Shown in pieces: positions 11,548 through 36,297 of a DNA stretch of 64,000 bases. The translations under genes were made by a program, and so were the position numbers. The DNA lies in the IMG/VR virus record IMGVR_UViG_3300037067_019759; one strand, given 5' to 3'. The notes beneath the pieces were generated by a model, which had not been told where the DNA came from, made no database searches, and saw only the letters and a list, made by a program, of their open reading frames with translations. Source of the stretch: a virus (taxonomy: Duplodnaviria > Heunggongvirae > Uroviricota > Caudoviricetes). Numbering within the stretch: position 1 is the stretch's first letter; each line of letters starts with the position of its first letter.

Positions 11548-14500
11548 ATGTTTAATTTTAATGAAAAATTTTTTGAAAAATATCAAAAACAATTATTATT
11601 TATTGCAAATTGTTGGTATTTGCGATGGTTTTTGGGTTTGCATCGGTTGTCTAAAAAGATAAAAAAAGAAACAAAAATAATTTCAAAAATAACACCAAAT
11701 TCAATCTACGTAAAGATAAATGATGTAAAATATAAAAAATATTGTTTTGTTAATAATCGTTTTGCGGAATCATTATTTTATAATTTTTATCCTTTTTATT
11801 ATTTTCGATCATTGAAAAAAAATTCTTTTTGGAGATTAAGTCCGATAAAATTAGCATATCAAGTCTTTTTTTATATTATTGGAATCAAATTTTTTAATAT
11901 ACCTTTTATTATTTTTGGAACAACGGTAACTGATTTTTATTCTGGTTCTGGTGATGGGGAAGTGGCCAATTACAATGCCTCGTGGGATACTTGCCAATCG
12001 GCGACGGACGGAGTAGATGCCTTACCAGCCGGAGCGAGTAGAATAGCTGGAATTTATAAGCAAGGTGGTGGTGATTACAGCATTGAAAGATTATTTACTC
12101 CTTTTCTCACTTCCGATTTGCCTGATGATGCAAATATTACAATAGTAACTTTGACTTTATTTACCGTGAATGAAGTTATAGATAATGATAATGATGGCAA
12201 TGATTTTCTGACGGTAGTGCAAACCTCGCAAGCGGACAATACTACCTTGGGGACTGCTGATTTTGACAAGTGCGGCGATGCCATTACTAATCCAACGGAG
12301 GGAGTGGATAGTGGAAACAGAATTGATATTTCCGGTATTTCCACTTATTCATCAATTACTTTCACGCTTAATTCCACTGGCAGAGGCTGGGTTAATAAAA
12401 CGGGATATACTCTATTGGGAGTACGTGAAGGACACGATGTTTTAGACGATCCACCAACATTATCAAATGGACAAGGAAATTATGTTAGGTTTTATATGTC
12501 GGAACAGACAGGATCGGATACTGATCCTTGTTTAGAAATTACTTATGTTAGTTCCAGTACATCTCCTAGTATTTCTCCTTCCGCTAGTCCTTCGACGTCT
12601 ATCTCTCCTAGCATAAGCCCCAGTATTTCCCCTTCTGTTAGTCCATCTACATCTATTTCTCCAAGTATAAGCCATAGTGTTAGCCTTTCAATATCTCCCT
12701 CTAAAAGTCCTAGCTTTTCTCCCTCTATTAGCCCTTCTTTATCTCCTTCTAAAAGTCCCAGTATCAGTCCCTCTGTTAGTCCTTCCGTCTCTATCTCTCC
12801 TTCTAAAAGCCCTAGTGTTAGCCCTTCTTTATCTCCTTCTAAAAGTCCCAGTATCAGTCCCTCTGTTAGTCCTTCCGTCTCTATCTCTCCTTCTAAAAGC
12901 CCTAGTGTTAGCCCTTCTTTATCTCCTTCTAAAAGTCCCAGTATCAGTCCCTCTGTTAGTCCTTCCGTCTCTATCTCTCCTTCTAAAAGCCCTAGTGTTA
13001 GCTCTTCAATGTCTCCGTCCGTTAGTCCTTCTGCATCACCTAGCACTAGTATATCACCGAGTATTTCTCCTTCAATTTCTCTTTCATTTTCACCCAGCAT
13101 CAGTCCTTCTGTTAGTCCTTCTGTTTCTATAAGTCCCTCTATTTCTCCTAGTTTTTCTTTTAGTATTAGTCCCTCTATCAGTCCGAGTACTTCACCATCA
13201 GCGAGTATATCTCCCTCTATCAGCCCGAGCTTAAGTCCTTCATTAAGCTCTAGTTTTTCTTTTTCATTGAGTCCATCTTTTTCGCCATCTATTAGTCCCT
13301 CTACTTCTCCTAGCGTTAGCATCAGTCCTTCAAAATCTCCAAGTATAAGTCCAAGTAAATCTCCTTCTTTTTCTCCTAGTTTCTCTCCTTCTGCCAGTCC
13401 TTCAATTTCACCATCTGTGTCTCCTAGTACATCTTTGTCACCTTCTTTGTCTCCCTCTATTTCTCCCAGTAATTCACCATCTTTTAGCCCTTCCGTTTCT
13501 CCATCTGTTTCAATATCGCCATCCTTATCACCAAGTTTTTCTTCTTCTAAAAGTCCTAGTATTTCTCCTTCTATCAGTCCCTCTGTTTCTCCTTCAATTA
13601 TTTCTAGTTTTAGTCCATCGTTGAGTCCTTCTGTTAGTCCTTCCATATCTCCCTCTTTAAGTCCCTCTCTTAGTCCTTCTTTTTCTCCTAGTTTAAGCCC
13701 TAGTATCAGTCCTTCGGAATCTCCTAGTACTAGTATCAGTCCTTCCAAATCTCCATCTATTAGTCCTTCTTTTTCTCCTAGTTTAAGTCCCAGTATTAGT
13801 CCCTCCGAATCTCCTAGCACCAGCATCAGCCCTTCTAAATCTCCTTCTTTAAGTCCCAGCATCAGCTTTTCTTTTTCTCCCAGTTTTAGTCCAAGTGTTA
13901 GCTTTTCTAAATCTCCTTCTTTAAGTCCTAGTATCAGTCCTTCCGCATCTCCTAGTGTTAGTATTAGCCCCTCAATATCTCCTTCTTTAAGCCCCAGTAT
14001 CAGTCCTTCAATTTCTTCCTCCTTAAGTTCTAGCGTCAGTTCTTCTTTTTCTCCTTCTCTGAGCCCTAGTATTAGTCCTTCTGTTTCTCCTAGCGTTAGT
14101 ATCAGTCCTTCTTTGTCTCCCTCTTTAAGTCCTTCTCTTAGTCCTTCCGTTTCTCCTAGCGTTAGTATCAGTCCTTCTTTGTCTCCCAGTCTGTCTCCGT
14201 CTTTAAGTCCCTCAATTTCTCCTTCTTTTAGTCCTTCTTTTTCTCTTTCTTTAAGCCCAAGTATTAGTTTATCTTTTTCTCCCTCTATTAGTCCCTCCAT
14301 ATCCCCCTCTCCAAGTCCCGGCTGGTTAGATTATACGAGAGGCGATTACGCTGATTTACCTAACGATGATAACTATTTAGAAACTAATTATTCCGCACAG
14401 GATTATTTAGATGTAGCGGAAAAAGATAATATTAGAGTGGATCAGACAGCAACAGTAGAATATGCGATTCATGAATTTAAGGAATATGCTGGCGTAGTAA

Positions 14501-14727
14501 ATTCTTGTACTATAGAATGGTATGGCAGAACTAACTGTGATGCTTCTTTAAGTGCGGTTTATTTACAAATTTATAATTATATTACTCCTGGTTGGGAAAC
14601 GATTGATTCTAATAACACGGTGGCAGAAGATGTTAATTTTTCTTTAACTGCCTCTAAAGCAAATTTAACTAATTATAAAAATGGAAGTGGAGTGGCTACT
14701 TTTAGAGTATATCAATTAGCATTATAA
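11548..14727 (+). CDS. Virion fibre-like protein. N-terminal globular domain, then roughly 590 aa of (x)SPS tandem repeat, then a C-terminal domain.
   Basis: ATG at 11548. The core is hundreds of ISPS/VSPS/KSPS/LSPS units encoded by near-perfect 90-bp DNA tandem repeats (12710-12990). Flanking domains are low-complexity-free. Confidence 0.55.
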   Translation: MFNFNEKFFEKYQKQLLFIANCWYLRWFLGLHRLSKKIKKETKIISKITPNSIYVKINDVKYKKYCFVNNRFAESLFYNFYPFYYFRSLKKNSFWRLSPIKLAYQVFFYIIGIKFFNIPFIIFGTTVTDFYSGSGDGEVANYNASWDTCQSATDGVDALPAGASRIAGIYKQGGGDYSIERLFTPFLTSDLPDDANITIVTLTLFTVNEVIDNDNDGNDFLTVVQTSQADNTTLGTADFDKCGDAITNPTEGVDSGNRIDISGISTYSSITFTLNSTGRGWVNKTGYTLLGVREGHDVLDDPPTLSNGQGNYVRFYMSEQTGSDTDPCLEITYVSSSTSPSISPSASPSTSISPSISPSISPSVSPSTSISPSISHSVSLSISPSKSPSFSPSISPSLSPSKSPSISPSVSPSVSISPSKSPSVSPSLSPSKSPSISPSVSPSVSISPSKSPSVSPSLSPSKSPSISPSVSPSVSISPSKSPSVSSSMSPSVSPSASPSTSISPSISPSISLSFSPSISPSVSPSVSISPSISPSFSFSISPSISPSTSPSASISPSISPSLSPSLSSSFSFSLSPSFSPSISPSTSPSVSISPSKSPSISPSKSPSFSPSFSPSASPSISPSVSPSTSLSPSLSPSISPSNSPSFSPSVSPSVSISPSLSPSFSSSKSPSISPSISPSVSPSIISSFSPSLSPSVSPSISPSLSPSLSPSFSPSLSPSISPSESPSTSISPSKSPSISPSFSPSLSPSISPSESPSTSISPSKSPSLSPSISFSFSPSFSPSVSFSKSPSLSPSISPSASPSVSISPSISPSLSPSISPSISSSLSSSVSSSFSPSLSPSISPSVSPSVSISPSLSPSLSPSLSPSVSPSVSISPSLSPSLSPSLSPSISPSFSPSFSLSLSPSISLSFSPSISPSISPSPSPGWLDYTRGDYADLPNDDNYLETNYSAQDYLDVAEKDNIRVDQTATVEYAIHEFKEYAGVVNSCTIEWYGRTNCDASLSAVYLQIYNYITPGWETIDSNNTVAEDVNFSLTASKANLTNYKNGSGVATFRVYQLAL
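12356..12454 (+). repeat. 99-bp segment of fibre gene 11548 with an exact inverted copy at 36009-36107
   Basis: The reverse complement of 36009-36107 equals 12356-12454 base for base (TTACTTTCACGCTTAATTCC...GTTTTAGACGATCCAC). Confidence 0.7.
12543..14310 (+). repeat. Coding tandem repeat (TCN-CCN-AGN periodic, SPS) including three near-identical 90-bp units at about 12710-12990
   Basis: Visible DNA periodicity. Blocks such as tctaaaagtcccagtatcagtccctctgttagtccttccgtctctatctctcct recur exactly. Confidence 0.7.
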
Positions 14728-14734
14728 GAAATAA

Positions 14735-17683
14735 ATGAATAAATTACTTGCCAATTTAATACGAATTATAACGGAAATACTACATTGGATTTTGTCGTTT
14801 TTTGTTGATGAACAAGTATTATCAGAGTGGAAATTTTTACATCTTTGTTGGTGGTTTCGTAAACACGGGTTAAAAATTCCGAAGTATTTTATTGGGGCGG
14901 ATACTGGGGCGTTAAGTCCAGGAACAATGGCAGATGACGCAACAGTCGGCACTGTGGCGTGGACGAATCCTGATAATGCGAAGGTGAGTGATAATGTGTA
15001 TGCGAGTGCCGTATTATCGGGAGATTCTCATTATCTCAAAGCAACTAATTTTGGATTTTCTATTCCTAGCGGAGCAACTATAAACGGAGTTGTTGTAGAG
15101 ATACAAAAAAAAGGTTCATATCCAGTAGGAGACTTTCTTGTTGATAAATATGTGAAAATAGTTAAGGCAGATGGAACTATTGGAACAACAAATAAGGCAG
15201 ATACAACAACAAATTGGCCTACTAGCGAAGCATATAAAACCTATGGAGCGAATAATGATTTATGGGGAGAAACTTGGACGGCAGAAAATATAAATGATGT
15301 AGATTTTGGAGTAGTTATTTCTACACAATATACAGGAGTAAATGCTTACATTGACCACATCCGTATCACAGTTTATTACACGGAAGCAATTTCAACTTCG
15401 CCATCTATTAGTCCTTCTATTTCACCAAGTATATCATTTTCCACTTCATTAAGTCCTAGCATTTCTCCTTCTGTTAGTTCTTCTTTTTCTCCCTCTGAAA
15501 GTTCTAGTATTTCACCTTCAGTATCTCCGCCACCTCAAACTAATTTACAGACAGATTATTGGAAAGTTATTTTTGGAGAAATTCCAAGTTTTAGTCCTTC
15601 TGTTAGTCCTAGTATTAGCCCTAGTTTTTCTCTTTCAATTTCTCCTTCCGTTAGTCCTTCCGCTAGTCCAAGTACTAGTATTAGTCCTTCTATTAGTCCT
15701 AGTGTTAGTCCTAGTTTTTCTCCTTCAATTTCTTTTTCCATTAGTCCTTCTGTTAGTCCTAGCGTTAGTATTAGTCCTTCCATTTCTCCTAGCATCAGTC
15801 CATCTATAAGTCCTAGTGTTAGTTTTAGTTTTTCTCCTTCCATCAGTCCTTCTGTTAGTCCTAGCGTTAGTATCAGCCCTTCTCTTTCTCCTAGCATTAG
15901 TCCGTCTGCTAGTCCATCCATTTCTATTAGTCCTAGTTTTTCACCAAGTATTAGTCCAAGTAAAAGTCCTAGCATTTCTTCAAGTATTTCTCCTTCCATC
16001 AGCCCTAGCGCTAGTCCTTCTGCTAGCGTTAGTCCTTCCATATCTCCATCTATTAGTCTGAGTATTTCACCCTCTATATCTCCTAGCTTTAGTCCTTCCG
16101 TTTCTCCTAGCATTAGTATCAGTCCTTCATTCAGTCCTTCATTAAGTCCAAGTGTTAGTCCTTCACTAAGTCCAAGCGTTAGCTCTTCAATATCATCTTC
16201 TATTAGTCCTTCCGTTTCTCCTAGCAACAGTATCAGTCCTTCGTTAAGTCCTTCGTTAAGTCCAAGTGTTAGTCCCTCAATATCGCTTTCCGTCAGTCCT
16301 TCCGAATCTCCTAGTGTTAGTATCAGTCCTTCTATTTCTCCGAGCATTAGTCCTTCCGTTAGTCCTTCAATATCGTCAAGTTTTTCACCCTCTGTTTCAC
16401 TGAGTGTTAGTATCAGTCCTTCTTTTTCTCCCTCTGTCAGTCCTAGCTTTTCTCCCTCTGTCAGTCCTTCCGTGTCTATCTCTCCAAGCATAAGTCCTAG
16501 CGTTAGTCCTTCAATGTCTCCCTCTAAAAGTCCTAGCTTTTCTCCCTCTGTCAGTCCTTCTTTTTCTTTCTCTATTAGTCCATCTACATCTATTTCTCCA
16601 AGTATAAGCCCCAGTGTTAGCCCTTCAATATCTCCCTCTAAAAGTCCTAGCTTTTCTCCCTCCGTCAGTCCTTCCGCGTCTATCTCTCCAAGCATAAGCC
16701 CCAGCATTAGTCCCTCTGTTTCTCCTTCAATTATTTCTAGTCTTAGTCCATCGTTGAGTCCTTCTGTTAGTCCTTCCATATCTTTATCCCAGTCTCCGTC
16801 TATATCGATAAGCCCATCTTTATCGCCAAGTTTTAGTGTTTCGATTAGTTCATCTATTTCTCCGTCTATTAGCCCCTCAATATCTCCTTCTTTAAGCCCC
16901 AGTATTAGTCTCTCAATTTCTCCCTCCTTAAGCCCCAGTATCAGTCCTTCTTTTTCTCCTTCTTTTTCTCCTTCTGTCAGTCCTAGCTTTTCTCCCTCCG
17001 TCAGTCCTTCAATTTCTATAAGTCCATCATTATCACCAAGCATTAGTCCTTCCATTAGTTTTTCTTTTTCATTATCCCTTAGTCCTTCTGTCAGTCCTAG
17101 CTTTTCTCCTTCCGCCAGTCCTTCAATTTCTATAAGTCCATCAATATCACCAAGCATTAGTCCTTCTGTTAGTCCGTCTGTTTCACCGAGCGTTTCTCCC
17201 TCAATTTCTTTTAGTTTAAGTCCGAGTTTCAGTCCGTCCTTCTCTCCTAGCTTTAGTCCTTCCATTAGTTTTTCAATATCTCCTAGTGTTTCACCAAGTT
17301 TTTCATCGAGTTTTTCACCATCTTTTAGTCCATCTGTTTCACCGAGCTTTTCACCATCTTTTAGTCTATCTGTTTCACCTAGTATTAGTCCTTCTTTTAG
17401 TACTTCCATCTCTCCAAGTTTAAGCCCGAGTATAAGTCCTTCCATTAGTCCGTCGTTTTCGCCAAGTGTATCTCCCTCTATTAGTCCTTCAGTTAGTCCT
17501 TCGCCTAGTTTTGAAATCAACGATTGGGTTCCAATTGGTGAAATTGAAGTTGAATATATAAATGGATGTATAGAAACAGAAACTATGACGGGTGAAATAG
17601 ATACTGAATATATGCGCGGATGTATAGAAACAGAAACGATAATAGGCGAAATAGAGACTGAAGATATAAGAGGAACGAGATAA
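14735..17683 (+). CDS. Virion fibre-like protein with a roughly 700-aa SPS-repeat core and a C-terminal GEIETE/GCIETET repeat tail
   Basis: Same repeat class as 11548. The N-terminal domain differs. C-terminal 3x repeat EYINGCIETETM.GEI.TE. Confidence 0.55.
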   Translation: MNKLLANLIRIITEILHWILSFFVDEQVLSEWKFLHLCWWFRKHGLKIPKYFIGADTGALSPGTMADDATVGTVAWTNPDNAKVSDNVYASAVLSGDSHYLKATNFGFSIPSGATINGVVVEIQKKGSYPVGDFLVDKYVKIVKADGTIGTTNKADTTTNWPTSEAYKTYGANNDLWGETWTAENINDVDFGVVISTQYTGVNAYIDHIRITVYYTEAISTSPSISPSISPSISFSTSLSPSISPSVSSSFSPSESSSISPSVSPPPQTNLQTDYWKVIFGEIPSFSPSVSPSISPSFSLSISPSVSPSASPSTSISPSISPSVSPSFSPSISFSISPSVSPSVSISPSISPSISPSISPSVSFSFSPSISPSVSPSVSISPSLSPSISPSASPSISISPSFSPSISPSKSPSISSSISPSISPSASPSASVSPSISPSISLSISPSISPSFSPSVSPSISISPSFSPSLSPSVSPSLSPSVSSSISSSISPSVSPSNSISPSLSPSLSPSVSPSISLSVSPSESPSVSISPSISPSISPSVSPSISSSFSPSVSLSVSISPSFSPSVSPSFSPSVSPSVSISPSISPSVSPSMSPSKSPSFSPSVSPSFSFSISPSTSISPSISPSVSPSISPSKSPSFSPSVSPSASISPSISPSISPSVSPSIISSLSPSLSPSVSPSISLSQSPSISISPSLSPSFSVSISSSISPSISPSISPSLSPSISLSISPSLSPSISPSFSPSFSPSVSPSFSPSVSPSISISPSLSPSISPSISFSFSLSLSPSVSPSFSPSASPSISISPSISPSISPSVSPSVSPSVSPSISFSLSPSFSPSFSPSFSPSISFSISPSVSPSFSSSFSPSFSPSVSPSFSPSFSLSVSPSISPSFSTSISPSLSPSISPSISPSFSPSVSPSISPSVSPSPSFEINDWVPIGEIEVEYINGCIETETMTGEIDTEYMRGCIETETIIGEIETEDIRGTR
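15400..17510 (+). repeat. Coding SPS tandem repeat region of gene 14735
   Basis: Same repeat class. About 2.1 kb. Confidence 0.7.
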
Positions 17684-17700
17684 AAGTACCAAAAATACTG

Positions 17701-17719
17701 GATTTATGGTATAATATAA
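17701..17719 (+). promoter_or_regulatory. Extended -10 promoter (TGgTATAATATAA) upstream of structural gene 17738
   Basis: gatttatggTATAATataat lies 19 nt before the ATG. Confidence 0.4.
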
Positions 17720-17737
17720 TTAACTAATTTTACCAAA

Positions 17738-19123
17738 ATGGTCAATATTAAAGCCCAAAATAATATTTTGCTTAAAAGCGCAAAATTCTCCTACCTATCG
17801 GCGAATTATTTATCTGGAGTGACTTCTTTGGTTTTGTCTAATAGTGATGGATTCTATCCGTATACGATCGGCGCGTCCAGTACACAATTCGACATCACAA
17901 ATACTACCGGGACTACCTTTCGGTATACTTATGATACAACCGGTACAGACCCTGAAATAGGAGAGAATATCCAAGTAAATTCGCAAGTAGTTATTAATGG
18001 TCAAAATTTTACGGTTGCCAATAATGGCACATTTACGGTTACTGCGTTTAGCACTAATTATTTCGAAGTTACCAACGCTAGCGGGGTAGTAGAGTCAAAC
18101 AAAACTCTAGGCACGGGGTCACTTTCTGTGGGAAGAAATAATTTTGTTTTGCTCGGTGAGTTTGGTTCTGAAACGTCGGAAATAGTGACGGTGAGTAGTG
18201 TTAATAAGAGTACGCATACACTTACTTTGAGCGCGGCGACTAAATTTTCACATAGTCAAGATACTAAAGCGTATGTATTAGGTTATGATAAAGTAAAATT
18301 TTTTCATACAACGACAGCGACTTTTAATACAACTACTCCCATAAGTGGATATCTTGATATATCTGCAGATTCGTTATATACGACAGGATCAGACGCTGCA
18401 AATTCTACCGGTTTTGGTTGGTTTTATTTCTATAATAGTATTACTGCCAAAGATTCAGCTACGAGTAATGCTGTTCCATATTCTTCGTTTGGAGAAAACA
18501 GCGTTAAAAGTATATTAGAAATTTTTTATAGTTTGCTTAATGATAAAGAACGGAAATTGATAACTGATACTGACTCTTTACATTGGCTCAATGAAGCTTA
18601 TTCGATTGCTCAAAATTCTTTAAATTTGGTAAATAGAGAATATTTTGCGGATAGTATAGATACTATAACTTCTGTTTCTGGTACTGCTGAATATGATTTA
18701 GAAAATGATTTTTCATCTGTAATTAATATTTATGATGAAACTAATGAAAAAAATATAGAATGGATAGATTTGAGAAATGTATCTTCTTGGAATTATGATT
18801 CTAACAATACTACTCATTATTATTTAAAAGGAGGAAAAATTGGATTTTCTCCAATTCCCAGTTCTGCAATAGAATATTCAGTCCGTTATAATTATAAAAC
18901 AACAGCGGTTAGTTCTTATTACGAAAACATAGATTTGCCAAATGGAAATTTTTATTGTGTTATAAATTTTATGTTGCATCGTGCTGGAATAAAATTGGGT
19001 AAAAGTGATGCAATGAATTATTTAAAATTATTTGATAAAGATATTGAACGAATGAAGTTAACTAGTTTTAAACAGAATGCGAATTTAGACAGTTGGGGAA
19101 TGGAAAAAAGTAGTTGGGTTTAG
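17738..19123 (+). CDS. Virion structural protein (baseplate or tail-associated candidate)
   Basis: Thr/Ser/Asn-rich, beta-rich composition in the structural block. An extended -10 promoter lies immediately upstream. Confidence 0.4.
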   Translation: MVNIKAQNNILLKSAKFSYLSANYLSGVTSLVLSNSDGFYPYTIGASSTQFDITNTTGTTFRYTYDTTGTDPEIGENIQVNSQVVINGQNFTVANNGTFTVTAFSTNYFEVTNASGVVESNKTLGTGSLSVGRNNFVLLGEFGSETSEIVTVSSVNKSTHTLTLSAATKFSHSQDTKAYVLGYDKVKFFHTTTATFNTTTPISGYLDISADSLYTTGSDAANSTGFGWFYFYNSITAKDSATSNAVPYSSFGENSVKSILEIFYSLLNDKERKLITDTDSLHWLNEAYSIAQNSLNLVNREYFADSIDTITSVSGTAEYDLENDFSSVINIYDETNEKNIEWIDLRNVSSWNYDSNNTTHYYLKGGKIGFSPIPSSAIEYSVRYNYKTTAVSSYYENIDLPNGNFYCVINFMLHRAGIKLGKSDAMNYLKLFDKDIERMKLTSFKQNANLDSWGMEKSSWV

Positions 19124-19214
19124 ATATTATGAAGGTTTTGTTCGTTTATAGATAAAAGTTTATTTAAAAAATCTTTTTTAATCAGTATATATTTTTCATT
19201 ATTAATTTGTTCGG

Positions 19215-19580: not shown

Positions 19581-19723
19581 AAAATTATAATTTATAAACA
19601 GAAAATCCCGCCTTAATAAATAGTAATCTTTCGCAAAAACTATCTATTAAAACGAGATTCTCTGTGCGAAAGATTAAAAGTAAGTTATAAATACAGTATA
19701 TCATACTTCTTAAATAAAGTCAA
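19581..19723 (-). promoter_or_regulatory. Promoter (TTGACT-17-TATACT) plus sequence-divergent pseudoknot of the same topology, upstream of zinc-protein gene 19215-19580
   Basis: -35 at 19718-19723, -10 at 19695-19700. Stem 1 is 19666-19673 with 19627-19635 (TCTTTCGCA/TGCGAAAGA). Stem 2 is 19653-19665 with 19598-19612 (13 bp including two G-U pairs). Confidence 0.45.
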
Positions 19724-19740
19724 GTATTAAATTAAATTAT

Positions 19741-26743: not shown

Positions 26744-26747
26744 CAAT

Positions 26748-29579: not shown

Positions 29580-29588
29580 CATAAAAAT

Positions 29589-30257
29589 ATGAGCGATTTA
29601 CCAATGGCAACTAAATACCAAGATTTAAGCGGAGCAATCTCGCCGATGTTGCAAGCGTCTAAAGAAATAGGGGCGAGTGTCAGTAACGCGCGAAGAAAGA
29701 GCAAGAAAGCGGTGGATGTGTCGCAATATAAAGATTTTACCAGTACGCTGGGGCAGTATAGCGGGGGACAGACGGGGACGGCGAATAGTACACCGGCGAG
29801 TATAAGCGCCCTTGGTAATATTACAACTCCCTATATGGGTTCTACAATTTATGAACCAGGTGGAGCTCCCGGTGGTGCTAATGCACATAAAGGGATAGAT
29901 ATTGCAAATTCGATTGGTACTCCAATTAGAGCTTTTGCAGGAGGAACGGTTACTGAATCTATTACTGGAAAACAACATGGTGAATCAGGGTATGGAAATT
30001 TCGTAAAAATAGTTGATGATTCAGGAAAAGAATGGCGATATAGTCATTTGTCAGAAAATTGGGTCCCTACTATTGGGACTAAAGTTTCTAAAAATCAAGA
30101 AATTGGAAAAATGGGAGCAAGTGGAAGCACTTATTCATCCCATTATGACTATGATCCAAATAATCAAAATACGTGGGGTTCTCATCTTGATTTACGAATT
30201 AAGGATTTATTTGCTGGTGGAAAATATGTAGATCCATTAAGTGTTATTAAATCTTAA
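29589..30257 (+). CDS. M23 family metallopeptidase (virion-associated peptidoglycan hydrolase candidate)
   Basis: HKGIDIANSIGTPIRAFAGGTV ... GNFVKIVDDSGKEWRYSHL ... SHYDY is a LytM/M23 signature. Confidence 0.6.
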   Translation: MSDLPMATKYQDLSGAISPMLQASKEIGASVSNARRKSKKAVDVSQYKDFTSTLGQYSGGQTGTANSTPASISALGNITTPYMGSTIYEPGGAPGGANAHKGIDIANSIGTPIRAFAGGTVTESITGKQHGESGYGNFVKIVDDSGKEWRYSHLSENWVPTIGTKVSKNQEIGKMGASGSTYSSHYDYDPNNQNTWGSHLDLRIKDLFAGGKYVDPLSVIKS

Positions 30258-30362
30258 AATAATATAGTATAATACTATTAGGTTCTTAGCGGACGTAAGT
30301 GGAGTGAGGGGTCAAGTCTCTCACTCCAGCCTAAAATTATAATAATTAACTTGACTAATTAT
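30258..30362 (+). ncRNA. Conserved two-stem RNA element upstream of HNH gene 30363 (copy 2)
   Basis: Outer stem ttagg...cctaa. Inner stem GGAGTGAG/CTCACTCC with loop GGGTCAAGTCT. Compensatory changes in both stems relative to copy 1. Confidence 0.45.
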
Positions 30363-31112
30363 ATGGTTACACTTAAATGTAAAAGATGTGGTAAAGAAAT
30401 AATAACTTATGAATGGTTAAAAAATAGAAAAAAATATTGTTCTAAAAAATGTCAAAAGGTTATTAAAATTAAAAAACAATGTATCATATGTAATAAAATT
30501 TTTGAGGTATATAAATATAGAGAAAATACGGCGAAATTTTGCTCTGATAAATGTCATCGTAAATATAATAAAGGTAAAAAAGCAGTATGGTATGGAAAAC
30601 ATCATTCTGAAAAAACGAAAGAAAAAATAAGTAAAGCAAATAAAGGAAAAAAATGTTCAGAAGAGCAAAGAAAAAAAATGAGTAAAATACAAAAAAATAG
30701 AAAACATTTACCTTGTTATGAATCAACAAAAATAAAAATAGGATTAGCAAATAAAGGAAAAAATAATGGGCAATGGAAAGGAGGAATAACTCCTTTAAGA
30801 GTAACAATTTGGCAAAATATTAAATCAAAAGAATGGCGTTTATCAGTATACGAACGAGACAAATTTACCTGCCAAATGCCAAATTGTGATAGAACAGAAA
30901 CATTTTTAAATGCACATCATATAAAAGAATTTTCTAAAATTTTAGAAGAGTATAATATAAAAACTATAGAAGATGCAATTGATTGTGAGAAACTATGGGA
31001 TATAAATAATGGTATAACTCTCTGTAAAAAATGCCATGGACTAACAAAAATGAGAGAAGAACAATACGCCTCTTTATTCCAAGAAATAGTAAAACTAAAT
31101 TCAATAATATAA
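30363..31112 (+). CDS. HNH homing endonuclease with NUMOD3 repeats. The listed ORF begins at TTG 30351; ATG is at 30363.
   Basis: SKANKGKKCSEEQRKKMSKIQ / GLANKGKNNGQWKGGITP. C-terminal NAHHIKEFSK...NGITLCKKCHG. Preceded by the covarying two-stem element. Confidence 0.65.
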   Translation: MVTLKCKRCGKEIITYEWLKNRKKYCSKKCQKVIKIKKQCIICNKIFEVYKYRENTAKFCSDKCHRKYNKGKKAVWYGKHHSEKTKEKISKANKGKKCSEEQRKKMSKIQKNRKHLPCYESTKIKIGLANKGKNNGQWKGGITPLRVTIWQNIKSKEWRLSVYERDKFTCQMPNCDRTETFLNAHHIKEFSKILEEYNIKTIEDAIDCEKLWDINNGITLCKKCHGLTKMREEQYASLFQEIVKLNSII

Positions 31113-31116
31113 CAAT

Positions 31117-32925
31117 ATGTCTGCAACAACAACAATACAGGATCACATGCAAAAATCGAAAGCTTTCGCTATACGATCTATTATGGGAGACCAAAAACTT
31201 TCCCGCGTGTTGAGCGATGCCGTAAACGCTCCAGCCGGGTCTTTGAAAAAAGCAAAAGCCAAAGCAATTCTTGAATCTTTCTCTAATGCGCATAAAAATT
31301 ATTTGGCGAGTAAGGTGGTAGAGGATGGCAAGGGAGGCGTTGGATTACCGGCAAGTACGGGGTTTAGTATGAATAATGCGCCATTTGCGAAATATGCTCC
31401 GACCGGGTTTAGTTTATTGCCGTACCAACAGAATAAGACACCACAAGTAAACGCTAGTATTGATTCTTCTACTGGATTATTTAGTATACCATCTACAACT
31501 ACTTCAACCCAAACATCTGCTCCGTCGTTAACAAGCGCTCCATCTAGTGTTACCAATCTAGGATATAGTATTAATCCCTCTACTGGTTTGATGGAAAAGT
31601 CAGGATTTCAACTGCCAAAAACGCCAACCTCTGCGACTGTCACTAAACCGACCGCTCCGACCGCGCCTACTTCTGTCGTGTCTGCCACACCAATTGTCCC
31701 GACAGCAACTCCTACTACGCCGATTGCACCTAAAAATATTGAAACTCCAGAGGCAAAAGATTTTTCTACTTTAAATAATATAAAGTCTAGTTTTGGCGAT
31801 AGTTATTTTGAATCGTTTGTAAGTTCTTTAAGCGACTCAGAAAAAGAAAGATTATCGCCAGTAATAGAATCTATCAGATTGGGTGAAGGTGAATCAACTT
31901 TTGTTACTAAAATTCTTAATGATAAAACACAATTAGCCAAAATTTTAGGTACGCCGTTAGAAGTAGTAAATAATTTTCCCACCGGTTTACTCTCAAAAAA
32001 TTTAGGAGAACTTCAAGACACGGTAAAACAAAAATATAAACTCGATGAACAATTAGATAATATTACTAATCTTACCAACCAAAATGTTTCCGTTAAATCT
32101 GATTTAGAGCATTATATTAGAATACAGGATACTTATCTATCAGCGATTGATAAATTATTGAACGATTTTGAATATAATCGCAGTTATCAAGATGAGTCAA
32201 ACCCGAACACAAAATTACGTAATGATAATTATGCCTCGTATTTAAATTTGCTTAAAAATCGCCAAAATTCTCGATATGTCAATTACCTCGATACAGCCGT
32301 AACAACACAAAATAATAAATTAGAACGCGCACAAAATACTTATAATGCTATATTAGGACAAGCGGAGAAAGAATATACAAAACAAGCGGCGATTACGGAA
32401 GAGTCGTACAAAACGGTGAGTAATATGTTATCAGATTTATTTAAAAATGTGGCTGGACGTAGTGATGATTTGAGACAGCTGGAGACGTATGAATTAAGCA
32501 AAACAAAAACTTTGCAAAACATGGTAGATGATTTTAAGAAAAAACAAGATACGGAAACTTATAGTTATAGTAATGTTAAACAAATATTAGAATCATCAAG
32601 AGGGGATGATTTTGGCTCGATTATAAATCCTAACAATATTCCAAAACAGGGTTATGTTGATACTGGTATATATAAAGAATATCGTGATAAAGCAAGCGAC
32701 AAAACGAGTTTCGATAAAAATTTCAGTTATCTCCTTAATCCTAACGATACTACGGCACAAGCATTTATTAAAGAATCAAATTCTGATTTAAGCCAATGGG
32801 AATATGACGCACTCATTTGGCAATGGTTAGCATCTGATGGCAAAGATGCGTCAGACGAAGAAAAATCACAACAAATTAAATCATTAGGCAGAAATCCTGA
32901 ATCTTTTGGAATTTATGGTTATTAA
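31117..32925 (+). CDS. Virion structural protein (unknown role)
   Basis: Large ORF in the structural block. Ser/Thr/Pro-rich linker followed by a helical domain. Confidence 0.4.
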   Translation: MSATTTIQDHMQKSKAFAIRSIMGDQKLSRVLSDAVNAPAGSLKKAKAKAILESFSNAHKNYLASKVVEDGKGGVGLPASTGFSMNNAPFAKYAPTGFSLLPYQQNKTPQVNASIDSSTGLFSIPSTTTSTQTSAPSLTSAPSSVTNLGYSINPSTGLMEKSGFQLPKTPTSATVTKPTAPTAPTSVVSATPIVPTATPTTPIAPKNIETPEAKDFSTLNNIKSSFGDSYFESFVSSLSDSEKERLSPVIESIRLGEGESTFVTKILNDKTQLAKILGTPLEVVNNFPTGLLSKNLGELQDTVKQKYKLDEQLDNITNLTNQNVSVKSDLEHYIRIQDTYLSAIDKLLNDFEYNRSYQDESNPNTKLRNDNYASYLNLLKNRQNSRYVNYLDTAVTTQNNKLERAQNTYNAILGQAEKEYTKQAAITEESYKTVSNMLSDLFKNVAGRSDDLRQLETYELSKTKTLQNMVDDFKKKQDTETYSYSNVKQILESSRGDDFGSIINPNNIPKQGYVDTGIYKEYRDKASDKTSFDKNFSYLLNPNDTTAQAFIKESNSDLSQWEYDALIWQWLASDGKDASDEEKSQQIKSLGRNPESFGIYGY

Positions 32926-32929
32926 ATAA

Positions 32930-35572
32930 ATGGCAAAATCACTTCAACAATTTATACAAGATAAAGGATTAAAAACTCCAAATATTGGCGTTACTTTGCC
33001 AACTGTTTCTACTAAGGTGACTACTCCCATTGCTACTATTGATAAAGTAACTCCTTTAGACGTTATAAAAGAAATGCCCGCGACAGCTGGCAAAGGGTTA
33101 AGATGGATAGGCAGTCAACTCATGAAACCAGTTTCTACGGTAGCAGTAACGACTGAACAGGTAGGGAAAGCAATTGGTACGGGTGATGTTAGCCAATTAG
33201 GTCAAATCCCTAGTAAGATTGGTAATATTTTAACCGGTAAAACGACTAGAAGTTTTTCTGATATTTGGCGTGAAAGTTTACCTAATCATCCTACTGCTGG
33301 CACTGTTATCGGGACAGTTATTGATATTGCCGCTGATCCATTAAATTTTACTGGAGGCGCTTTATGGAAAGGAACGCAATTAGCGGGCAAAGGATTAACT
33401 AAAATACCTGGTGTCCAAGGAGCGATAGATTTAACTAAACCTCTTTTTTCTACTGCTACAAAAAATAAAGAGTTTGATTTAATGATACAACATTTTAGAG
33501 ATTTAGGAGATTATCGGAGGGCAGATATTATAGAACAATCTAAAAATGTTCAAAAAGAAGTAGCAAAACTAAAACCAAATGAGATAATTGAAGTTTCCAA
33601 TAAAATAGAAAAAGGAATAAAAAGTAATAATGAAATTATTAATACTTTAGCTGACAAATTAAAAAATACATATAAAAATTGGAAAACAGTAGAAAAAGAA
33701 TTGGGAATTAAAGGTGGTGAATTGGCGCAATATGCGCCACATGTTTCCACCTCTAAATTAGAAGGAGGCAAAGGACTATTAGGAACAATAAAAGAATTCA
33801 CTAGTAAATTAGGCGGGGCGGAAAAGAAGAGAACTATATTGAAATTTGTAGCTGATGATGGAGAAGAATTAATAGGTAAATTTGGAACGTTAGGATTAAG
33901 AGAAGTAAAAGATGGGTTTAAAGATAAGACAGGAAAATTATTTAAACCAGAACAGGCATCAATTGACGAAATTAATAAAGCGTTTGAGACTAAATTTTTT
34001 GAAGAAAATCCATCTATCCAAATGGCTTATCGCGGATTAGGACATGTAAAAGCGGTTACAGGAAAAGAATTTTTTGAAGGAGTAAAAAAATTTGCTAATG
34101 ATAGTTTAGGTACTGTTGCTTCTACCGCTCCTGATTTAAAAGGTTTGAAATTTGAGCCGGATGTAGCAAGGGCAATAGATACTTATTACCAAAGTATTCA
34201 ACCTGAAGAAATAAATGCTTTATTTAAAACATACGATTCAGTGTTAAATTGGTGGAAAGCCCAGGCTCTCCTTGGCCCAAGTTATCATACTCGTAATTTT
34301 GTATCCAATATTTGGAATAATTTTTTAGCTGGCGTGAAGAGTCCAATAGAATATATCCAAGCTGGTATGCTACAAAAAGGTGGTAAGTTAAATATTACTG
34401 ATAAAACTGGTAAAGTATGGGCTGAAAAAGGATTAATTGATTCTGCTAAAAGAACAGGTGTAATAAACGAGGGTTGGTATGCGAAAGATATTCCTGAAGC
34501 GCTTGATGTTGAAATGTCAAAAGGAAATTGGAATCCGCTTTCTCGTAAATTTGTAGGATTTAAATTAAATAAACAAATTGGATCAGCCGTAGAAAATAAT
34601 GCTCGGCTAGCTTTATTTTTAAAAGAGATCAAAGATGGAAAATCAATAGACCAAGCGGCAATGACCGTAAAAAAATATCTTTTTGATTATGGAAATTTAA
34701 CTAAATATGAACAAAGTATATTAAAAAGAGTATTCCCATTTTATACATGGTCTAGATTTAATGTACCTCTTCAGCTTGAAAATTTAATTAGACAACCCGG
34801 AAAATACGCCGGATTGGAGAAAGTAATTGGTGCGGTAGAAAAAATAACGATGGGTGATAATAAACCAGCTAATGAAAAATATTTGTCTGATTATATAAAG
34901 AACAACACGGCGATGCGCGTAGGATATAATGACAAAGAAAAAACTTATTATTATTTTTTGCTTGGTAATTGGATGCCTGGATATCAAATGATGGACTTTT
35001 TATCACAGCCAGCAACTAATTTAATGCAATCCATGACTCCGATTATAAAAACTCCAATAGAAATGTTGTCTAATAAATCAAGATTTTTTAAGGATACTTT
35101 AGGAGAATACGATACTATAGAAAATTATCCGGGAGAAACAACCAATTTTTTAGGTTTTAATATGTCTAAAAAGACGGCGACTGTATTAAGAAATATTAGA
35201 ATTTTAAACGAATTAGACAAATTAAACCCAGGCAAGATATTTGGCGGTAAACAAGGAGAATCTAGTATTTGGGCAAAAGCTAAAATACCAGCAGTTGAAA
35301 TACCTAAGTTAGGATCTATTTCTCCAGCAATGGAAAAATATCGTAAAACAGAACCAGCTCCTCCCATTTCTGCCAGAACTAGTAATTTATTTTTAGGAAA
35401 ATTACAATCTTATAAAGAAGCATCTTCTAGAGATTACTATCAACAAGATACAGATAGAAGAGTTGAGGAATACAAAAGACAAATAAAAGCTTCCGCTAAA
35501 AAAGGAGATAAAGAAAGAGTAAAATTACTTAATAAACAATTAAGAGATTTTATTAAAGAAAGAGGACGTTAA
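32930..35572 (+). CDS. Large virion protein (portal or other structural candidate; uncertain)
   Basis: 880-aa ORF ending the plus-strand block. No diagnostic motif recognised. Confidence 0.35.
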   Translation: MAKSLQQFIQDKGLKTPNIGVTLPTVSTKVTTPIATIDKVTPLDVIKEMPATAGKGLRWIGSQLMKPVSTVAVTTEQVGKAIGTGDVSQLGQIPSKIGNILTGKTTRSFSDIWRESLPNHPTAGTVIGTVIDIAADPLNFTGGALWKGTQLAGKGLTKIPGVQGAIDLTKPLFSTATKNKEFDLMIQHFRDLGDYRRADIIEQSKNVQKEVAKLKPNEIIEVSNKIEKGIKSNNEIINTLADKLKNTYKNWKTVEKELGIKGGELAQYAPHVSTSKLEGGKGLLGTIKEFTSKLGGAEKKRTILKFVADDGEELIGKFGTLGLREVKDGFKDKTGKLFKPEQASIDEINKAFETKFFEENPSIQMAYRGLGHVKAVTGKEFFEGVKKFANDSLGTVASTAPDLKGLKFEPDVARAIDTYYQSIQPEEINALFKTYDSVLNWWKAQALLGPSYHTRNFVSNIWNNFLAGVKSPIEYIQAGMLQKGGKLNITDKTGKVWAEKGLIDSAKRTGVINEGWYAKDIPEALDVEMSKGNWNPLSRKFVGFKLNKQIGSAVENNARLALFLKEIKDGKSIDQAAMTVKKYLFDYGNLTKYEQSILKRVFPFYTWSRFNVPLQLENLIRQPGKYAGLEKVIGAVEKITMGDNKPANEKYLSDYIKNNTAMRVGYNDKEKTYYYFLLGNWMPGYQMMDFLSQPATNLMQSMTPIIKTPIEMLSNKSRFFKDTLGEYDTIENYPGETTNFLGFNMSKKTATVLRNIRILNELDKLNPGKIFGGKQGESSIWAKAKIPAVEIPKLGSISPAMEKYRKTEPAPPISARTSNLFLGKLQSYKEASSRDYYQQDTDRRVEEYKRQIKASAKKGDKERVKLLNKQLRDFIKERGR

Positions 35573-35742
35573 TTGCATCCTCCCATATAGTTCGGTTCGC
35601 ATTGATAACTATCTTTTGGAATATTATAATTAGTATCGTAAGATACTGTATCTTTTGTTGAATACCAAAAAATTAAAGAGGTACAAATAAAACCTATTAT
35701 AATTCCTAAAAAAATTGAATTAGGGTCTAATTCTTTTGTCAT
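35570..35742 (-). CDS. Small membrane peptide (holin-like candidate), about 57 aa. Not in the ORF table because it is under 60 aa.
   Basis: Translation MTKELDPNSIFLGIIIGFICTSLIFWYS... has one clear TM helix. Located at the strand-switch next to another membrane protein. Confidence 0.25.
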
Positions 35743-35751
35743 ATATTTTAA

Positions 35752-36297
35752 TTATTTATTCATTCCTACTCCAGTAATAACAGATGCTATTAATGTTATA
35801 AATATAGCAAACATTACTATTAGAAATATTTCTATTAAACCACTAACAAAAGCTGGAAATAAATAAAATAAATATTTAACTAAAAAATAAAATCCTATAA
35901 GGATTAAAATACCAATAGAGGAAACCCAACCTCCATTTTTTTTATCATTAATCCAATTTAATGATTTATCAAATTTATCCATTATTTTTTCTTTTAAATT
36001 ACGGATGAGTGGATCGTCTAAAACATCGTGTCCTTCACGTACTCCCAATAGAGTATATCCCGTTTTATTAACCCAGCCTCTGCCAGTGGAATTAAGCGTG
36101 AAAGTAAAAGTTTTAGATTTTTTATATTCATAAATTGTAATCATCAAAAATCCATAAAAATAAGTAAATACAAAATTACCTATAAAAAATCCTATTTCAT
36201 CTCCTTCTCCCATGGTATCGTTTAAATATTCTAATAATAATACAAAAATTGCTGTTGTTAGAAAATAAGCGATAGTTTGTTTTGTTTTTTTTGTCAT
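35752..36297 (-). CDS. Membrane protein carrying an embedded 33-aa segment identical to fibre protein 11548
   Basis: Hydrophobic N- and C-terminal helices. The central FTFTLNSTGRGWVNKTGYTLLGVREGHDVLDDP is encoded by a 99-bp exact inverted copy of 12356-12454. Confidence 0.3.
   Translation of the reverse strand: MTKKTKQTIAYFLTTAIFVLLLEYLNDTMGEGDEIGFFIGNFVFTYFYGFLMITIYEYKKSKTFTFTLNSTGRGWVNKTGYTLLGVREGHDVLDDPLIRNLKEKIMDKFDKSLNWINDKKNGGWVSSIGILILIGFYFLVKYLFYLFPAFVSGLIEIFLIVMFAIFITLIASVITGVGMNK
36009..36107 (-). repeat. Inverted exact copy of 12356-12454 embedded in membrane-protein ORF 35752-36297
   Basis: See partner feature. Confidence 0.7.

What the first reader, a model, noticed from the sequence alone, without database searches (positions are those of the whole stretch)
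12356..36107. Perfect 99-bp inverted duplication linking fibre gene 11548 to a membrane-protein ORF 23.6 kb away
Positions 12356-12454 lie inside the fibre gene's N-terminal domain and encode TFTLNSTGRGWVNKTGYTLLGVREGHDVLDDP. They are 100% identical to the reverse complement of 36009-36107. The copy is in frame inside the minus-strand ORF 35752-36297, between hydrophobic helices, at the boundary where transcription switches strand. The identity is exact and there are no adenine-specific differences. That argues against a diversity-generating retroelement TR/VR pair, and no reverse transcriptase is present. The duplication is therefore recent, or is maintained by gene conversion. Inverted identical repeats this long are substrates for RecA-independent inversion of the intervening 23.6 kb, which holds the entire fibre and tail module. 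Alternatively the copy marks a past recombination or insertion junction that created a chimeric membrane protein.
Basis: seen in the sequence. Interest (0 to 1): 0.6.

Follow-up and report, generated by a model that had tools for sequence, protein, structure and literature searches.

The report
Fibre-gene fragment copied into membrane gene
A 99-base piece of this uncultured phage's own fibre-like gene was recently pasted, backwards, into the end of a small membrane-protein gene 23.6 kb away. It fuses two small genes into one, and looks like an ordinary scar of sloppy DNA-break repair rather than a new genetic system.

Summary
Positions 12356-12454 are 100% identical to the reverse complement of 36009-36107, with none expected by chance. 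It is not an assembly artefact. Two other assemblies give contigs 100% identical to the window across the 36-kb copy and both flanks. In a third dataset, k=31 contigs stop exactly 30 nt into the repeat from two sides.

The 36-kb copy is derived. Eleven related phage contigs carry the same HNH gene followed by a 66-aa membrane ORF, with an empty site at that point. The insert has 43% GC in 21% GC flanks. It encodes the most conserved motif and two core strands of a CBM96/DNRLRE-like beta-sandwich that is native to the fibre-like gene.

The net gain is 98 nt, two codons before the 66-aa ORF's stop. Junction microhomology is 1-2 nt, and there are no target duplications or terminal repeats. The insertion fuses that ORF in frame to the next small membrane ORF, at about 1/9 by chance.

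No reverse transcriptase, invertase, integrase or transposase was found.

Best reading: a recent, strain-specific templated ("filler") insertion at a module junction.

Inversion of the 23.6 kb between the copies is physically possible. It could not be tested here, and it would break the fibre domain. Interest is low to moderate.

The parts
11548..14727 (+). Donor gene. It encodes a fibre-like structural protein of 1059 aa: a conserved N-terminal region (aa 1-120), a CBM96/DNRLRE-like beta-sandwich (aa ~125-335), about 640 aa of (S-P-S-x)n repeats, and a C-terminal domain.
   Evidence: ORF list and translation. The closest homologue, P0155, is 45% identical over the N-terminal 341 aa. NF033679 DNRLRE_dom is sub-threshold here (E 0.018) but passes the cut-off in family member P0007. 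The AF2 model has pLDDT >90 for aa 125-335. Foldseek top hits are the chondroitin-sulfate-binding and alginate-binding CBMs 8wab and 7vbo.
12356..12454 (+). Native copy of the 99-nt repeat (R). It covers aa 270-302 of the fibre-like protein.
   Evidence: Ten of the 19 invariant or near-invariant columns of a 41-sequence family alignment fall in this segment: L274, G278, W281, G286, G291, R293, E294, G295, H296, D297. It covers strands E269-273 and E287-294 of the model. More than 200 unrelated proteins match only this motif.
36009..36107 (-). Ectopic, inverted copy of R. The net insertion is 98 nt, and it is absent from all relatives.
   Evidence: GC is 43% against 21% in both flanks. Gaps of 98 columns in L007, L008, L010, L011 and L017. 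BLAST of relatives breaks at window 36106 and 36008.
36108..36297 (-). N-terminal part of the fused ORF. It is the homologue of the free-standing 66-aa 2-TM ORF of relatives (P0153, P0154).
   Evidence: In relatives the ORF ends ...SKTF(R/H)P* just past the insertion point.
35999..36001 (-). Relic TAA stop codon of the ancestral 66-aa ORF. The 98-nt insertion has put it out of frame.
   Evidence: Read. Window minus 98 nt reads TCT AAA ACT TTT CAT CCG TAA, which is colinear with L008 (CGC CCG TAA) and L007 (CAT CCG TGA).
35752..36008 (-). C-terminal part of the fused ORF. It is the homologue of the separate 91/93-aa 2-TM ORF of L007 (P0002, P0152). A conserved internal Met (aa 106 of the 181-aa ORF) may still start a 76-aa product.
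   Evidence: P0002 is 92% identical to aa 97-181. L007 ORFs. DNA is 93% identical.
35752..36297 (-). The fused 181-aa ORF: 2 TM, then the 33-aa fibre fragment, then 2 TM.
   Evidence: Hydropathy. The exact protein is on record only for this strain.
36303..36917 (-). HNH_3 homing-endonuclease-like gene immediately upstream. The same position is occupied by an HNH_3 gene in all relatives.
   Evidence: PF13392 at 2.4e-9. Gene tables of L007-L017.
35569..35742 (-). 57-aa single-TM ORF, the last gene of the minus-strand unit. It is present in L007 and absent in L008-type relatives.
37016..37043 (-). Consensus sigma-70-type promoter (TTGACA-16-TGnTATAAT, 12/12). It probably drives the HNH gene, the 181-aa ORF and the 57-aa ORF.
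   Evidence: This is a consensus match only.
35560..35584 (-). Terminator-like hairpin at the convergence point of the two transcription directions.
   Evidence: This is a consensus match only.
32930..35572 (+). Last plus-strand structural gene (880 aa), converging on the minus-strand unit. L008-type relatives have a non-homologous 1038-aa gene here, so this point is a module junction.

Best explanation
The 36-kb copy is a recent, strain-specific ectopic insertion of a 98-99-nt piece of the phage's own fibre-like gene, in inverted orientation, into the last two codons of a 66-aa membrane-protein gene.

Shown:
- The fibre copy is native. The segment encodes the signature motif and two core strands of a widespread CBM96/DNRLRE-like domain.
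- The other site is empty in every relative found.
- The insert keeps fibre-like base composition in very AT-rich flanks.
- The junctions have only 1-2 nt of shared sequence, with no target-site duplication and no terminal repeats.
- Because the net gain is 98 nt (2 mod 3) and the fibre reading frame is open, the 66-aa ORF now reads through the fragment into the next small 2-TM ORF, giving a 181-aa chimera.

Inferred mechanism:
- A DNA break or stalled replication end arose at this spot. The spot lies about 10 nt from a module junction and about 200 nt downstream of an HNH endonuclease gene, in a homing-endonuclease-dense genome that replicates by recombination (SbcCD-like genes).
- The end primed on another genome copy at a 1-2-nt microhomology, copied about 97 nt of the fibre gene, then rejoined. 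This is a templated 'filler DNA' or template-switch insertion.
- The fragment cannot fold alone. It probably sits as a tolerated hydrophilic loop.
- The in-frame state is either luck (about 1/9) or weak purifying selection for expression of the downstream half.

A side effect is a pair of 99-nt perfect inverted repeats. Homologous recombination between them could flip the 23.6-kb structural block. That would split the fibre's beta-sandwich, so such isomers should be selected against.
For: - The repeat is exact and non-random.
- It is real in independent assemblies.
- The site is empty in L007, L008-L013 and L015-L017. Relatives read AATCTAAAA(C/T)TTTTC(A/G)(T/C)CCGT(A/G)A where the window has the insert. 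Nineteen contigs carry the free-standing 66-aa ORF.
- Composition: R 43% GC, both flanks 21%, the fibre domain region 40%. GC3 is 0.30 in R against 0.10 in the rest of the ORF.
- The motif is native to the family: more than 200 proteins hit only aa 61-100 of the 181-aa ORF. See also the family alignment, the DNRLRE match, and the structure and fold hits.
- The nearest fibre homologue elsewhere is only 45% identical, with 20 of 33 residues shared in R. A 100% copy must therefore come from this strain's own allele.
- Zero differences in 99 nt gives a 95% upper bound of about 3% divergence (-ln0.05/99). The flanks are 7% diverged from L007.
- No RT, integrase, invertase or transposase was found in 46 ORFs, which include every ORF of 250 aa or more except one HNH paralogue and a GT2 gene already annotated.
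- The genome is HEG-dense with an SbcCD-like pair.
- No comparable repeat exists elsewhere in the window or in the relatives' loci.
Against: - The mechanism itself is inferred from the junction anatomy. No intermediate or second example was seen.
- The copied piece is the single most conserved stretch of the domain, is in sense orientation, and is in frame with both neighbours. That is mildly more order than a random filler needs: about 1/9, or about 1/18 counting the sense orientation.
- In L007 the downstream ORF has its own ATG that the window lacks. The fusion may therefore matter for expression.
- The three supporting datasets may come from the same site or even the same library (3300014205 is a municipal landfill sample). 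Their independence is of assemblers rather than certainly of samples.
- I could not test whether inverted isomers exist.
Confidence: 0.72

Rival explanations
1. The inverted repeats act as a recombination switch. Homologous or site-specific recombination between the two copies flips 12455-36008. Because R is in frame in both ORFs, this gives two alternative in-frame chimeras: fibre N-terminus with a 2-TM tail, and a 2-TM head with the rest of the fibre. This would resemble Mu G-segment or shufflon fibre switching.
For: - There are 99 nt of perfect inverted identity inside two ORFs in the same frame.
- The phage encodes SbcCD-like recombination functions.
- The fibre-like gene is involved, as in known invertible host-range switches (own knowledge of Mu Gin and P1 Cin).
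Against: - No invertase or integrase was found.
- The copy is absent from all 11 related loci, so it is not a conserved device.
- The k141 and JGI contigs pass through the 36-kb copy in one configuration without a graph break.
- The crossover point lies in the middle of the beta-sandwich, so both chimeras would carry a broken domain.
- The flipped block holds the whole tail module.
- Occasional non-programmed flipping remains likely but was not tested.
Confidence: 0.05
2. The chimera is a selected functional graft. The 33-aa fibre motif displayed in the loop of the membrane protein has a role of its own, for example as a decoy or docking peptide for a fibre chaperone or glycosyltransferase, or as a sensor for lysis timing or superinfection exclusion.
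For: - The insert is in sense orientation, in frame, and is exactly the most conserved motif of the domain.
- The motif holds two N-x-T sequons (NST, NKT), and the genome carries several glycosyltransferases.
- The fusion replaces the start codon used by the downstream ORF in L007.
Against: - It is present in one strain only.
- The fragment is two internal strands of a beta-sandwich and is unlikely to fold or be recognised out of context.
- The chance of an open, in-frame insertion is about 1/9.
- The perfect nucleotide identity gives no time for selection to be visible.
Confidence: 0.1
3. The repeat is an assembly or library artefact, such as a chimeric join, an MDA inversion chimera, or a mis-bridged repeat.
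For: - 99 is a common de Bruijn k value.
- The fibre-side copy was not recovered in the JGI collection.
- The source contig itself cannot be inspected.
Against: - Three assemblies with k=31, k=141 and JGI's pipeline agree base for base.
- The k141 contig needs reads that span all 99 nt plus both flanks.
- The Logan contigs stop k-1 nt into R from two different arms, which requires two contexts in the reads.
- The fibre context is natural on both sides by homology.
Confidence: 0.02
4. The two copies are a diversity-generating retroelement or other reverse-transcription-based copy, forming a TR/VR pair.
For: The length of about 100 nt and the location in a fibre-like gene resemble DGR targets (own knowledge of BPP-1 Mtd).
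Against: - There are zero differences, so no adenine-specific changes.
- No RT was found in any ORF of 250 aa or more.
- The segment is the invariant core of the domain, not a variable ligand-binding face.
- The copies are 23.6 kb apart and inverted.
- Relatives have an empty site.
Confidence: 0.01
5. The copy has a regulatory antisense role. Read-through of late plus-strand transcription past 35572 would produce RNA complementary to 99 nt of the fibre mRNA.
For: The hairpin at 35560-35584 has a T-tail only on the minus strand, so plus-strand read-through is conceivable (sequence).
Against: - There is no promoter or terminator evidence specific to such an RNA.
- R has no special fold (z = -1.3) and no Rfam match.
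- It is strain-specific.
Confidence: 0.03

Closest known systems
Templated ('filler DNA') insertions and microhomology-mediated template switching at repaired DNA breaks (MMBIR or alt-EJ type events)
   Same: - A short stretch copied from elsewhere in the same genome appears at a single site.
- Junction microhomology is 0-2 nt.
- There is no target-site duplication, no terminal repeats and no mobility gene of its own.
- The donor is unchanged.
- The site is empty in relatives.
   Different: - These events are described mainly in eukaryotic break repair and in bacterial or cancer rearrangements (own knowledge). A literature search returned only genome-editing papers, none on phage genomes.
- Here the donor is 23.6 kb away and inverted, in a phage.
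- The enzymes involved are unknown.
Invertible fibre-switch segments (Mu G/Gin, P1 C/Cin, Min, plasmid shufflons)
   Same: - There are inverted repeats inside a fibre-type gene.
- Recombination would swap what is fused to the fibre's N-terminal part.
   Different: - No serine or tyrosine recombinase is present.
- The repeats are 99 nt of coding sequence rather than a ~26-34-bp crossover site.
- There is no alternative fibre C-terminus on the other side.
- The segment is 23.6 kb and holds the tail module.
- It is not conserved in relatives.
Diversity-generating retroelements (TR/VR pairs in phage receptor-binding genes)
   Same: There are two copies of about 100 nt, one of them inside a fibre-like gene.
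   Different: - There is no RT.
- The copies are identical.
- The copy covers an invariant core, not a variable surface.
- The two copies are far apart and in inverted orientation.
Large inverted repeats that give genome isomers by flip-flop recombination (plastid IRs, herpesvirus segments)
   Same: Perfect inverted repeats flank a large block, so homologous recombination can invert the block.
   Different: - Those repeats are kilobases long, ancient and neutral to gene structure.
- Here the repeat is 99 nt, new, and lies inside two ORFs, so a flip changes both proteins.
CBM96 / DNRLRE-domain proteins (NF033679; PDB 8wab, 7vbo)
   Same: The donor domain has the same beta-sandwich fold and a weak profile match. 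R carries its signature L-G-x-R-E-G-H-D stretch.
   Different: - This relates only to the donor protein, not to the duplication.
- The window's protein scores below the NCBIfam cut-off (15 bits against 34).

Membership tests
Diversity-generating retroelement | Reverse transcriptase gene near the TR | tested here: not met
   Pfam scans of 46 ORFs, including every ORF of 250 aa or more except an HNH paralogue and a GT2 gene. No RVT family was found. Only 64 kb of a possibly 98-kb genome was visible.
Diversity-generating retroelement | TR and VR differ mainly at adenines of the TR | tested here: not met
   0 differences in 99 nt.
Diversity-generating retroelement | The VR encodes a variable ligand-binding surface at the C-terminus of the target protein | tested here: not met
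   R is the most conserved part of an N-terminal domain.
Site-specific invertible segment (Gin/Cin/Hin, shufflon) | Serine or tyrosine recombinase encoded next to the segment | tested here: not met
   No resolvase or integrase family was found in the scans. The 190-aa HTH protein at 53579-54151 matches only HTH families.
Site-specific invertible segment (Gin/Cin/Hin, shufflon) | Both orientations present in a population | not testable with these tools
   This needs raw reads. The only indirect sign is that the k141 and JGI contigs run through the 36-kb copy in one arrangement.
Site-specific invertible segment (Gin/Cin/Hin, shufflon) | Alternative fibre C-terminal exons on either side, and conservation in related phages | tested here: not met
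   The partner ORF is a small membrane protein. The copy is absent from 11 related loci.
Templated / filler-DNA insertion | Insert identical to a sequence elsewhere in the same genome, with the donor intact | tested here: met
   The donor context is natural by homology.
Templated / filler-DNA insertion | Empty site in close relatives with colinear flanks | tested here: met
   Alignments A2 and A3 and the BLAST breakpoints.
Templated / filler-DNA insertion | Zero to few nt of junction microhomology, with no TSD and no TIR | tested here: met
   1-2 T shared at one junction and none at the other. No similarity in the flanks.
Templated / filler-DNA insertion | Arises at a DNA break or stalled fork | not testable with these tools
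   Inferred only, from the adjacency to an HNH endonuclease gene and to a module junction.
Transposable element / MITE | Terminal inverted repeats, target-site duplication, several copies or a transposase | tested here: not met
   There are two copies only, one of them native coding sequence. No TIR, TSD or transposase was found.
Intein / intron / homing-endonuclease cassette | Self-splicing element or endonuclease ORF within the insert | tested here: not met
   The 33 aa are identical to fibre residues 270-302. There is no ORF of its own, no Rfam intron match and no special fold.
DNRLRE / CBM96-like domain (donor protein only) | Profile match above the curated cut-off | tested here: inconclusive
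   The window protein scores 15.1 bits against a cut-off of 34. Family member P0007 scores 46.1 bits. Fold matches to 8wab and 7vbo have E 5e-6 and 3e-4.

The most novel reading that the evidence does not exclude
The 99-nt inverted pair is used, not merely tolerated. Recombination between the copies flips the 23.6-kb structural block at an appreciable rate and produces two in-frame chimeras. One is a membrane-anchored version of the SPS-repeat fibre, driven by the early/middle minus-strand promoter. The other is a fibre N-terminus with a 2-TM tail. This would be a recombinase-free phase switch of virion or cell-surface display.
Probability: 0.04. Interest if true: 0.7.

Novelty: new member of a known kind. 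Interest (0 to 1): 0.25.

Why it matters
The finding is a clean natural example, with donor, target and empty site all in hand. It shows that a phage genome can pick up a short templated copy of its own coding sequence at a module junction and in one step fuse two small genes into a new ORF.

Such events are rarely documented in phages. They are one plausible route to new chimeric proteins and to internal inverted repeats that destabilise genome order.

For the scan itself, the main value is negative. The repeat is not a DGR, not an invertible host-range switch and not a misassembly.

Tried and rejected
- **Close relatives in GenBank phages.** Only weak HNH matches for the 36-kb region and nothing for the fibre N-terminus.
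- **IMG/VR.** A 38-mer of R, a conserved 32-mer of the membrane ORF, and the 880-aa neighbour all gave nothing.
- **JGI metagenome scan with the 38-mer.** Only the 1078-bp contig came back. The fibre-side copy is not assembled there.
- **Word-indexed protein search with the 181-aa ORF.** It found only itself. The exhaustive HMMER search was needed to find P0002 and the motif family.
- **Exact look-ups of the fibre protein and the HNH protein.** Not on record.
- **Search for inversion chimeras.** Neither protein search returned a protein joining fibre and membrane parts. The test is weak, because the native fibre is not in that database either.
- **RNA roles.** No Rfam family, no tRNA, and the fold of R is unremarkable.
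- **Longer homology between donor and target flanks that could have guided recombination.** None.
- **Other ectopic exact repeats in the window or in the relatives' loci.** None.
- **Literature on templated insertions in phages.** Only genome-editing papers came up.
- **Ancestral state.** I first read the ancestor as a continuous 148-aa ORF frameshifted in L007. I rejected this after 19 further contigs showed the 66-aa ORF as a free-standing gene with the same stop position.

Full report
**1. The observation**

The two stretches were read directly. Positions 12356-12454 (+) equal the reverse complement of 36009-36107, 99 of 99 nt. The repeat finder lists this as I2. A search allowing three mismatches finds just these two sites, with zero expected in 100 dinucleotide-preserving shuffles. 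No other long-range exact repeat in the window exceeds 41 nt. The rest are SPS-repeat or promoter motifs.

Both copies start in codon phase 1 and are read in the same frame, giving TFTLNSTGRGWVNKTGYTLLGVREGHDVLDDP. In the minus-strand ORF 35752-36297 (181 aa) the fragment is aa 65-96. It is hydrophilic (mean hydropathy -0.5) and lies between two N-terminal and two C-terminal hydrophobic segments.

**2. Not an artefact**

- The exact 181-aa protein is encoded on JGI contig Ga0172380_10370690 (1078 bp; a municipal landfill sample) and on ENA contig ERZ27247358 k141_2040912 (1070 bp).
- Both contigs are 100% identical to the window and carry the 36-kb copy with both flanks. A k=141 contig can only cross a 99-nt repeat if reads span it.
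- In a third dataset, Logan SRR18595300, contig L004 equals window 27531-36038 and contig L005 equals window 3402-12385. Each ends exactly 30 nt inside the repeat.
- Logan contigs are built so that every 31-mer is unique (PMC12424806). Stopping k-1 nt into R from two different arms therefore means R has two contexts in those reads.
- The samples may be related, so this is at least independence of assemblers.
- One oddity: the protein record lists a longest contig of 97,961 bp, although the look-up returned only the 1-kb contigs. The long contig is presumably the window's own source.

**3. Which copy is original**

- An exhaustive HMMER search with the 181-aa ORF gave 211 hits. All but one align only to aa ~61-100, that is to the fragment, at 40-77% identity, in proteins of 84-2854 aa. 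They share a domain whose consensus reads …FTLNxTGRGWIxKxGxTxLGVREGHD…SExTGTxxDPxLxVTY.
- In a 41-sequence alignment, ten of the 19 invariant or near-invariant columns fall within aa 270-302 of the fibre-like protein.
- The domain matches NCBIfam DNRLRE_dom. The match is weak for the window protein (15 bits) and above the cut-off for member P0007.
- An AlphaFold model has pLDDT >90 over aa 125-335. It is a beta-sandwich whose best PDB matches are the chondroitin-sulfate-binding and alginate-binding modules 8wab and 7vbo. R covers two core strands (269-273, 287-294) and the loops between them.
- The fibre copy is therefore native. The nearest homologue of the fibre N-terminus anywhere is only 45% identical, with 20 of 33 residues shared in R. 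A perfect copy must come from this strain's own allele.
- Composition agrees: R is 43% GC, the membrane-ORF flanks are 21%, and the fibre domain region is 40%.

**4. The empty site**

- The one other hit, P0002 (91 aa), is 92% identical to aa 97-181. Its contig L007 (groundwater, 1160 bp) has an HNH_3 gene, a 66-aa 2-TM ORF, an overlapping 91-aa 2-TM ORF in another frame, and the 57-aa ORF. There is no R.
- The 66-aa ORF clusters with P0154, which is found on 19 contigs of up to 31 kb from NCBI, JGI, ENA and Logan.
- In those contigs (L008-L017) the 66-aa ORF is the last minus-side gene. It abuts a converging 1038-aa gene that is not homologous to the window's 880-aa gene.
- Alignment of five relatives with the window shows …AATCTAAAA(C/T)TTTTC(A/G)(T/C)CCGT(A/G)A… in all of them, and a 98-column gap where the window has R. 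BLAST alignments of the relatives break at window 36106 and 36008.
- The window minus 98 nt reads TCT AAA ACT TTT CAT CCG TAA, which is the same SKTFHP* end as in the relatives. The old stop survives at 36001-35999, out of frame.
- The net gain is thus 98 nt (2 mod 3). One or two T's are ambiguous between donor and target. There is no target duplication, no terminal repeats and no flank similarity.
- Only one of the three sense frames of R is open, plus one antisense frame. An insertion that is both open and fuses the two ORFs has a chance of roughly 1/9.

**5. Age**

Zero differences in 99 nt bounds the divergence of the copies at about 3% (95%). The flanks differ from L007 by 7%. Relatives lack the copy, so gene conversion need not be invoked.

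**6. Context**

- The window is an AT-rich (about 31% GC) uncultured phage with no close relative in GenBank phages or IMG/VR.
- Minus-strand genes from about 55.3 kb down to 35.57 kb include a helicase, a Band_7 gene, SbcD-like and SbcC-like genes, and four HNH_3 paralogues.
- Plus-strand genes from 60 to 35572 include modification enzymes, the two SPS-repeat proteins, a SU10-adaptor-like protein, large structural proteins and an M23 peptidase.
- A 12/12 consensus promoter at 37043-37016 (-) and a terminator-like hairpin at 35584-35560 (-) bracket the HNH gene, the 181-aa ORF and the 57-aa ORF.
- No reverse transcriptase, integrase, invertase or transposase was found among 46 ORFs scanned.
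- There is no Rfam family or tRNA in the window, and R has no special fold.

**7. Interpretation**

- What is shown: a strain-specific, recent, inverted copy of 98-99 nt of the phage's own fibre-like gene sits two codons before the end of a small membrane-protein gene and fuses it to the next one.
- What is inferred: it arose as a templated (filler) insertion during repair of a break or restart of a stalled end.
- The anatomy fits this: minimal microhomology, no transposon features and an intact donor. So does the setting: a homing-endonuclease-dense genome, recombination nuclease genes, an HNH gene about 200 nt upstream, and a lineage-specific module junction about 10 nt away.
- The fragment cannot fold by itself. 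It most likely sits as a tolerated loop between transmembrane pairs.

**8. Consequences and rivals**

- The pair of 99-nt inverted repeats can in principle recombine and invert 12455-36008. Because R is in frame in both ORFs, both products would be open chimeras. Each would carry only part of the beta-sandwich, and the whole tail module would be turned round.
- There is no recombinase and no conservation. The longer-k contigs show only the parental junction at 36 kb.
- I rate a programmed switch at about 5% and occasional passive inversion as likely but unmeasured.
- A selected role for the displayed motif cannot be excluded (about 10%).
- An artefact (2%), a DGR (1%) and an antisense role (3%) are unlikely.

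**9. Verdict**

Of its two readings, the 'insertion junction creating a chimeric membrane protein' is supported, and the inversion idea remains untested. This is a well-resolved example of an ordinary kind of event, with modest interest.

Noticed in passing
window 1326-10745 (+) and 11548-17683 (+): Two radical-SAM/SPASM genes, at least two family-2 glycosyltransferases and two Methyltransf_24 genes lie directly upstream of two tandem proteins. Each of those proteins holds about 640-700 aa of (S-P-S-x)n repeats. This suggests a dedicated modification cluster, possibly glycosylation, for these fibre-like proteins.
   Followed up: partly
window 37045-37205 (-): A GC-rich non-coding stretch lies between an 85-aa zinc-ribbon ORF and the consensus promoter. 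It folds to -52 kcal/mol, z = -2.9. It has no Rfam match and was not found in the relatives' loci.
   Followed up: partly
window 63926-64000 (+): A 9-nt GC-rich tandem repeat (CGGCGCGGT-like) lies inside an ORF starting at 63749 and gives an ARS-ARS peptide repeat. It runs off the end of the window and is compositionally unlike the rest of the genome.
   Followed up: no
window 36303-36917, 37945-38721, 39209-39802, 42341-43090 (-); 60-782, 8981-9748, 30363-31112 (+); 48580-49083 (-): The density of homing-endonuclease-like genes is very high. There are four HNH_3 paralogues at 69-84% nt identity over aligned repeat segments, and four NUMOD3/HNH genes.
   Followed up: partly
window 38872-39201 (-); L008 6467-6799: The 109-aa ORF is 79% identical in DNA to a relative's gene that carries a Tad2-like (PF11195) hit, so it may be an anti-defence gene. 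Relatives also carry a Fic-domain gene beside it that the window lacks.
   Followed up: no
window ~35570-36010 versus L008 9657-9700: The strand-switch point is a module junction. L008-type relatives lack the 91-aa and 57-aa ORFs and have a 1038-aa converging gene with no detectable similarity to the window's 880-aa gene. Meanwhile the replication side is 78-85% identical.
   Followed up: yes
window 38820-38875, 39890-39945, 43181-43236, 49330-49385, 47813-47854, 55331-55374, 61014-61058: A repeated motif of about 45-56 nt contains TTGACAA…TATAC. It is probably the phage's early/middle promoter family (D20, I3, I5).
   Followed up: no
window 59352-60191 (+), 50848-51282 (-), 45110-45910 (-): There is a short alanyl-tRNA-synthetase-like ORF (tRNA-synt_2c N-terminal part, 279 aa), a SpoU-type RNA methylase and a Band_7/SPFH protein. 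These are unusual accessory genes for a phage of this size.
   Followed up: no
L007 706-760 versus window 36009-36140: In L007 and P0152 the downstream 2-TM ORF has its own ATG (ATGGAAAAT) inside the end of the 66-aa ORF. The window has ATAAAAAAT there, so expression of the C-terminal half in the window depends on the fusion or on the conserved internal Met106.
   Followed up: partly
protein record P0001: The cluster table lists a longest contig of 97,961 bp for the 181-aa protein, but the contig look-up returned only 1078-bp and 1070-bp contigs. The long contig is probably the window's own source and suggests a genome of about 98 kb.
   Followed up: no
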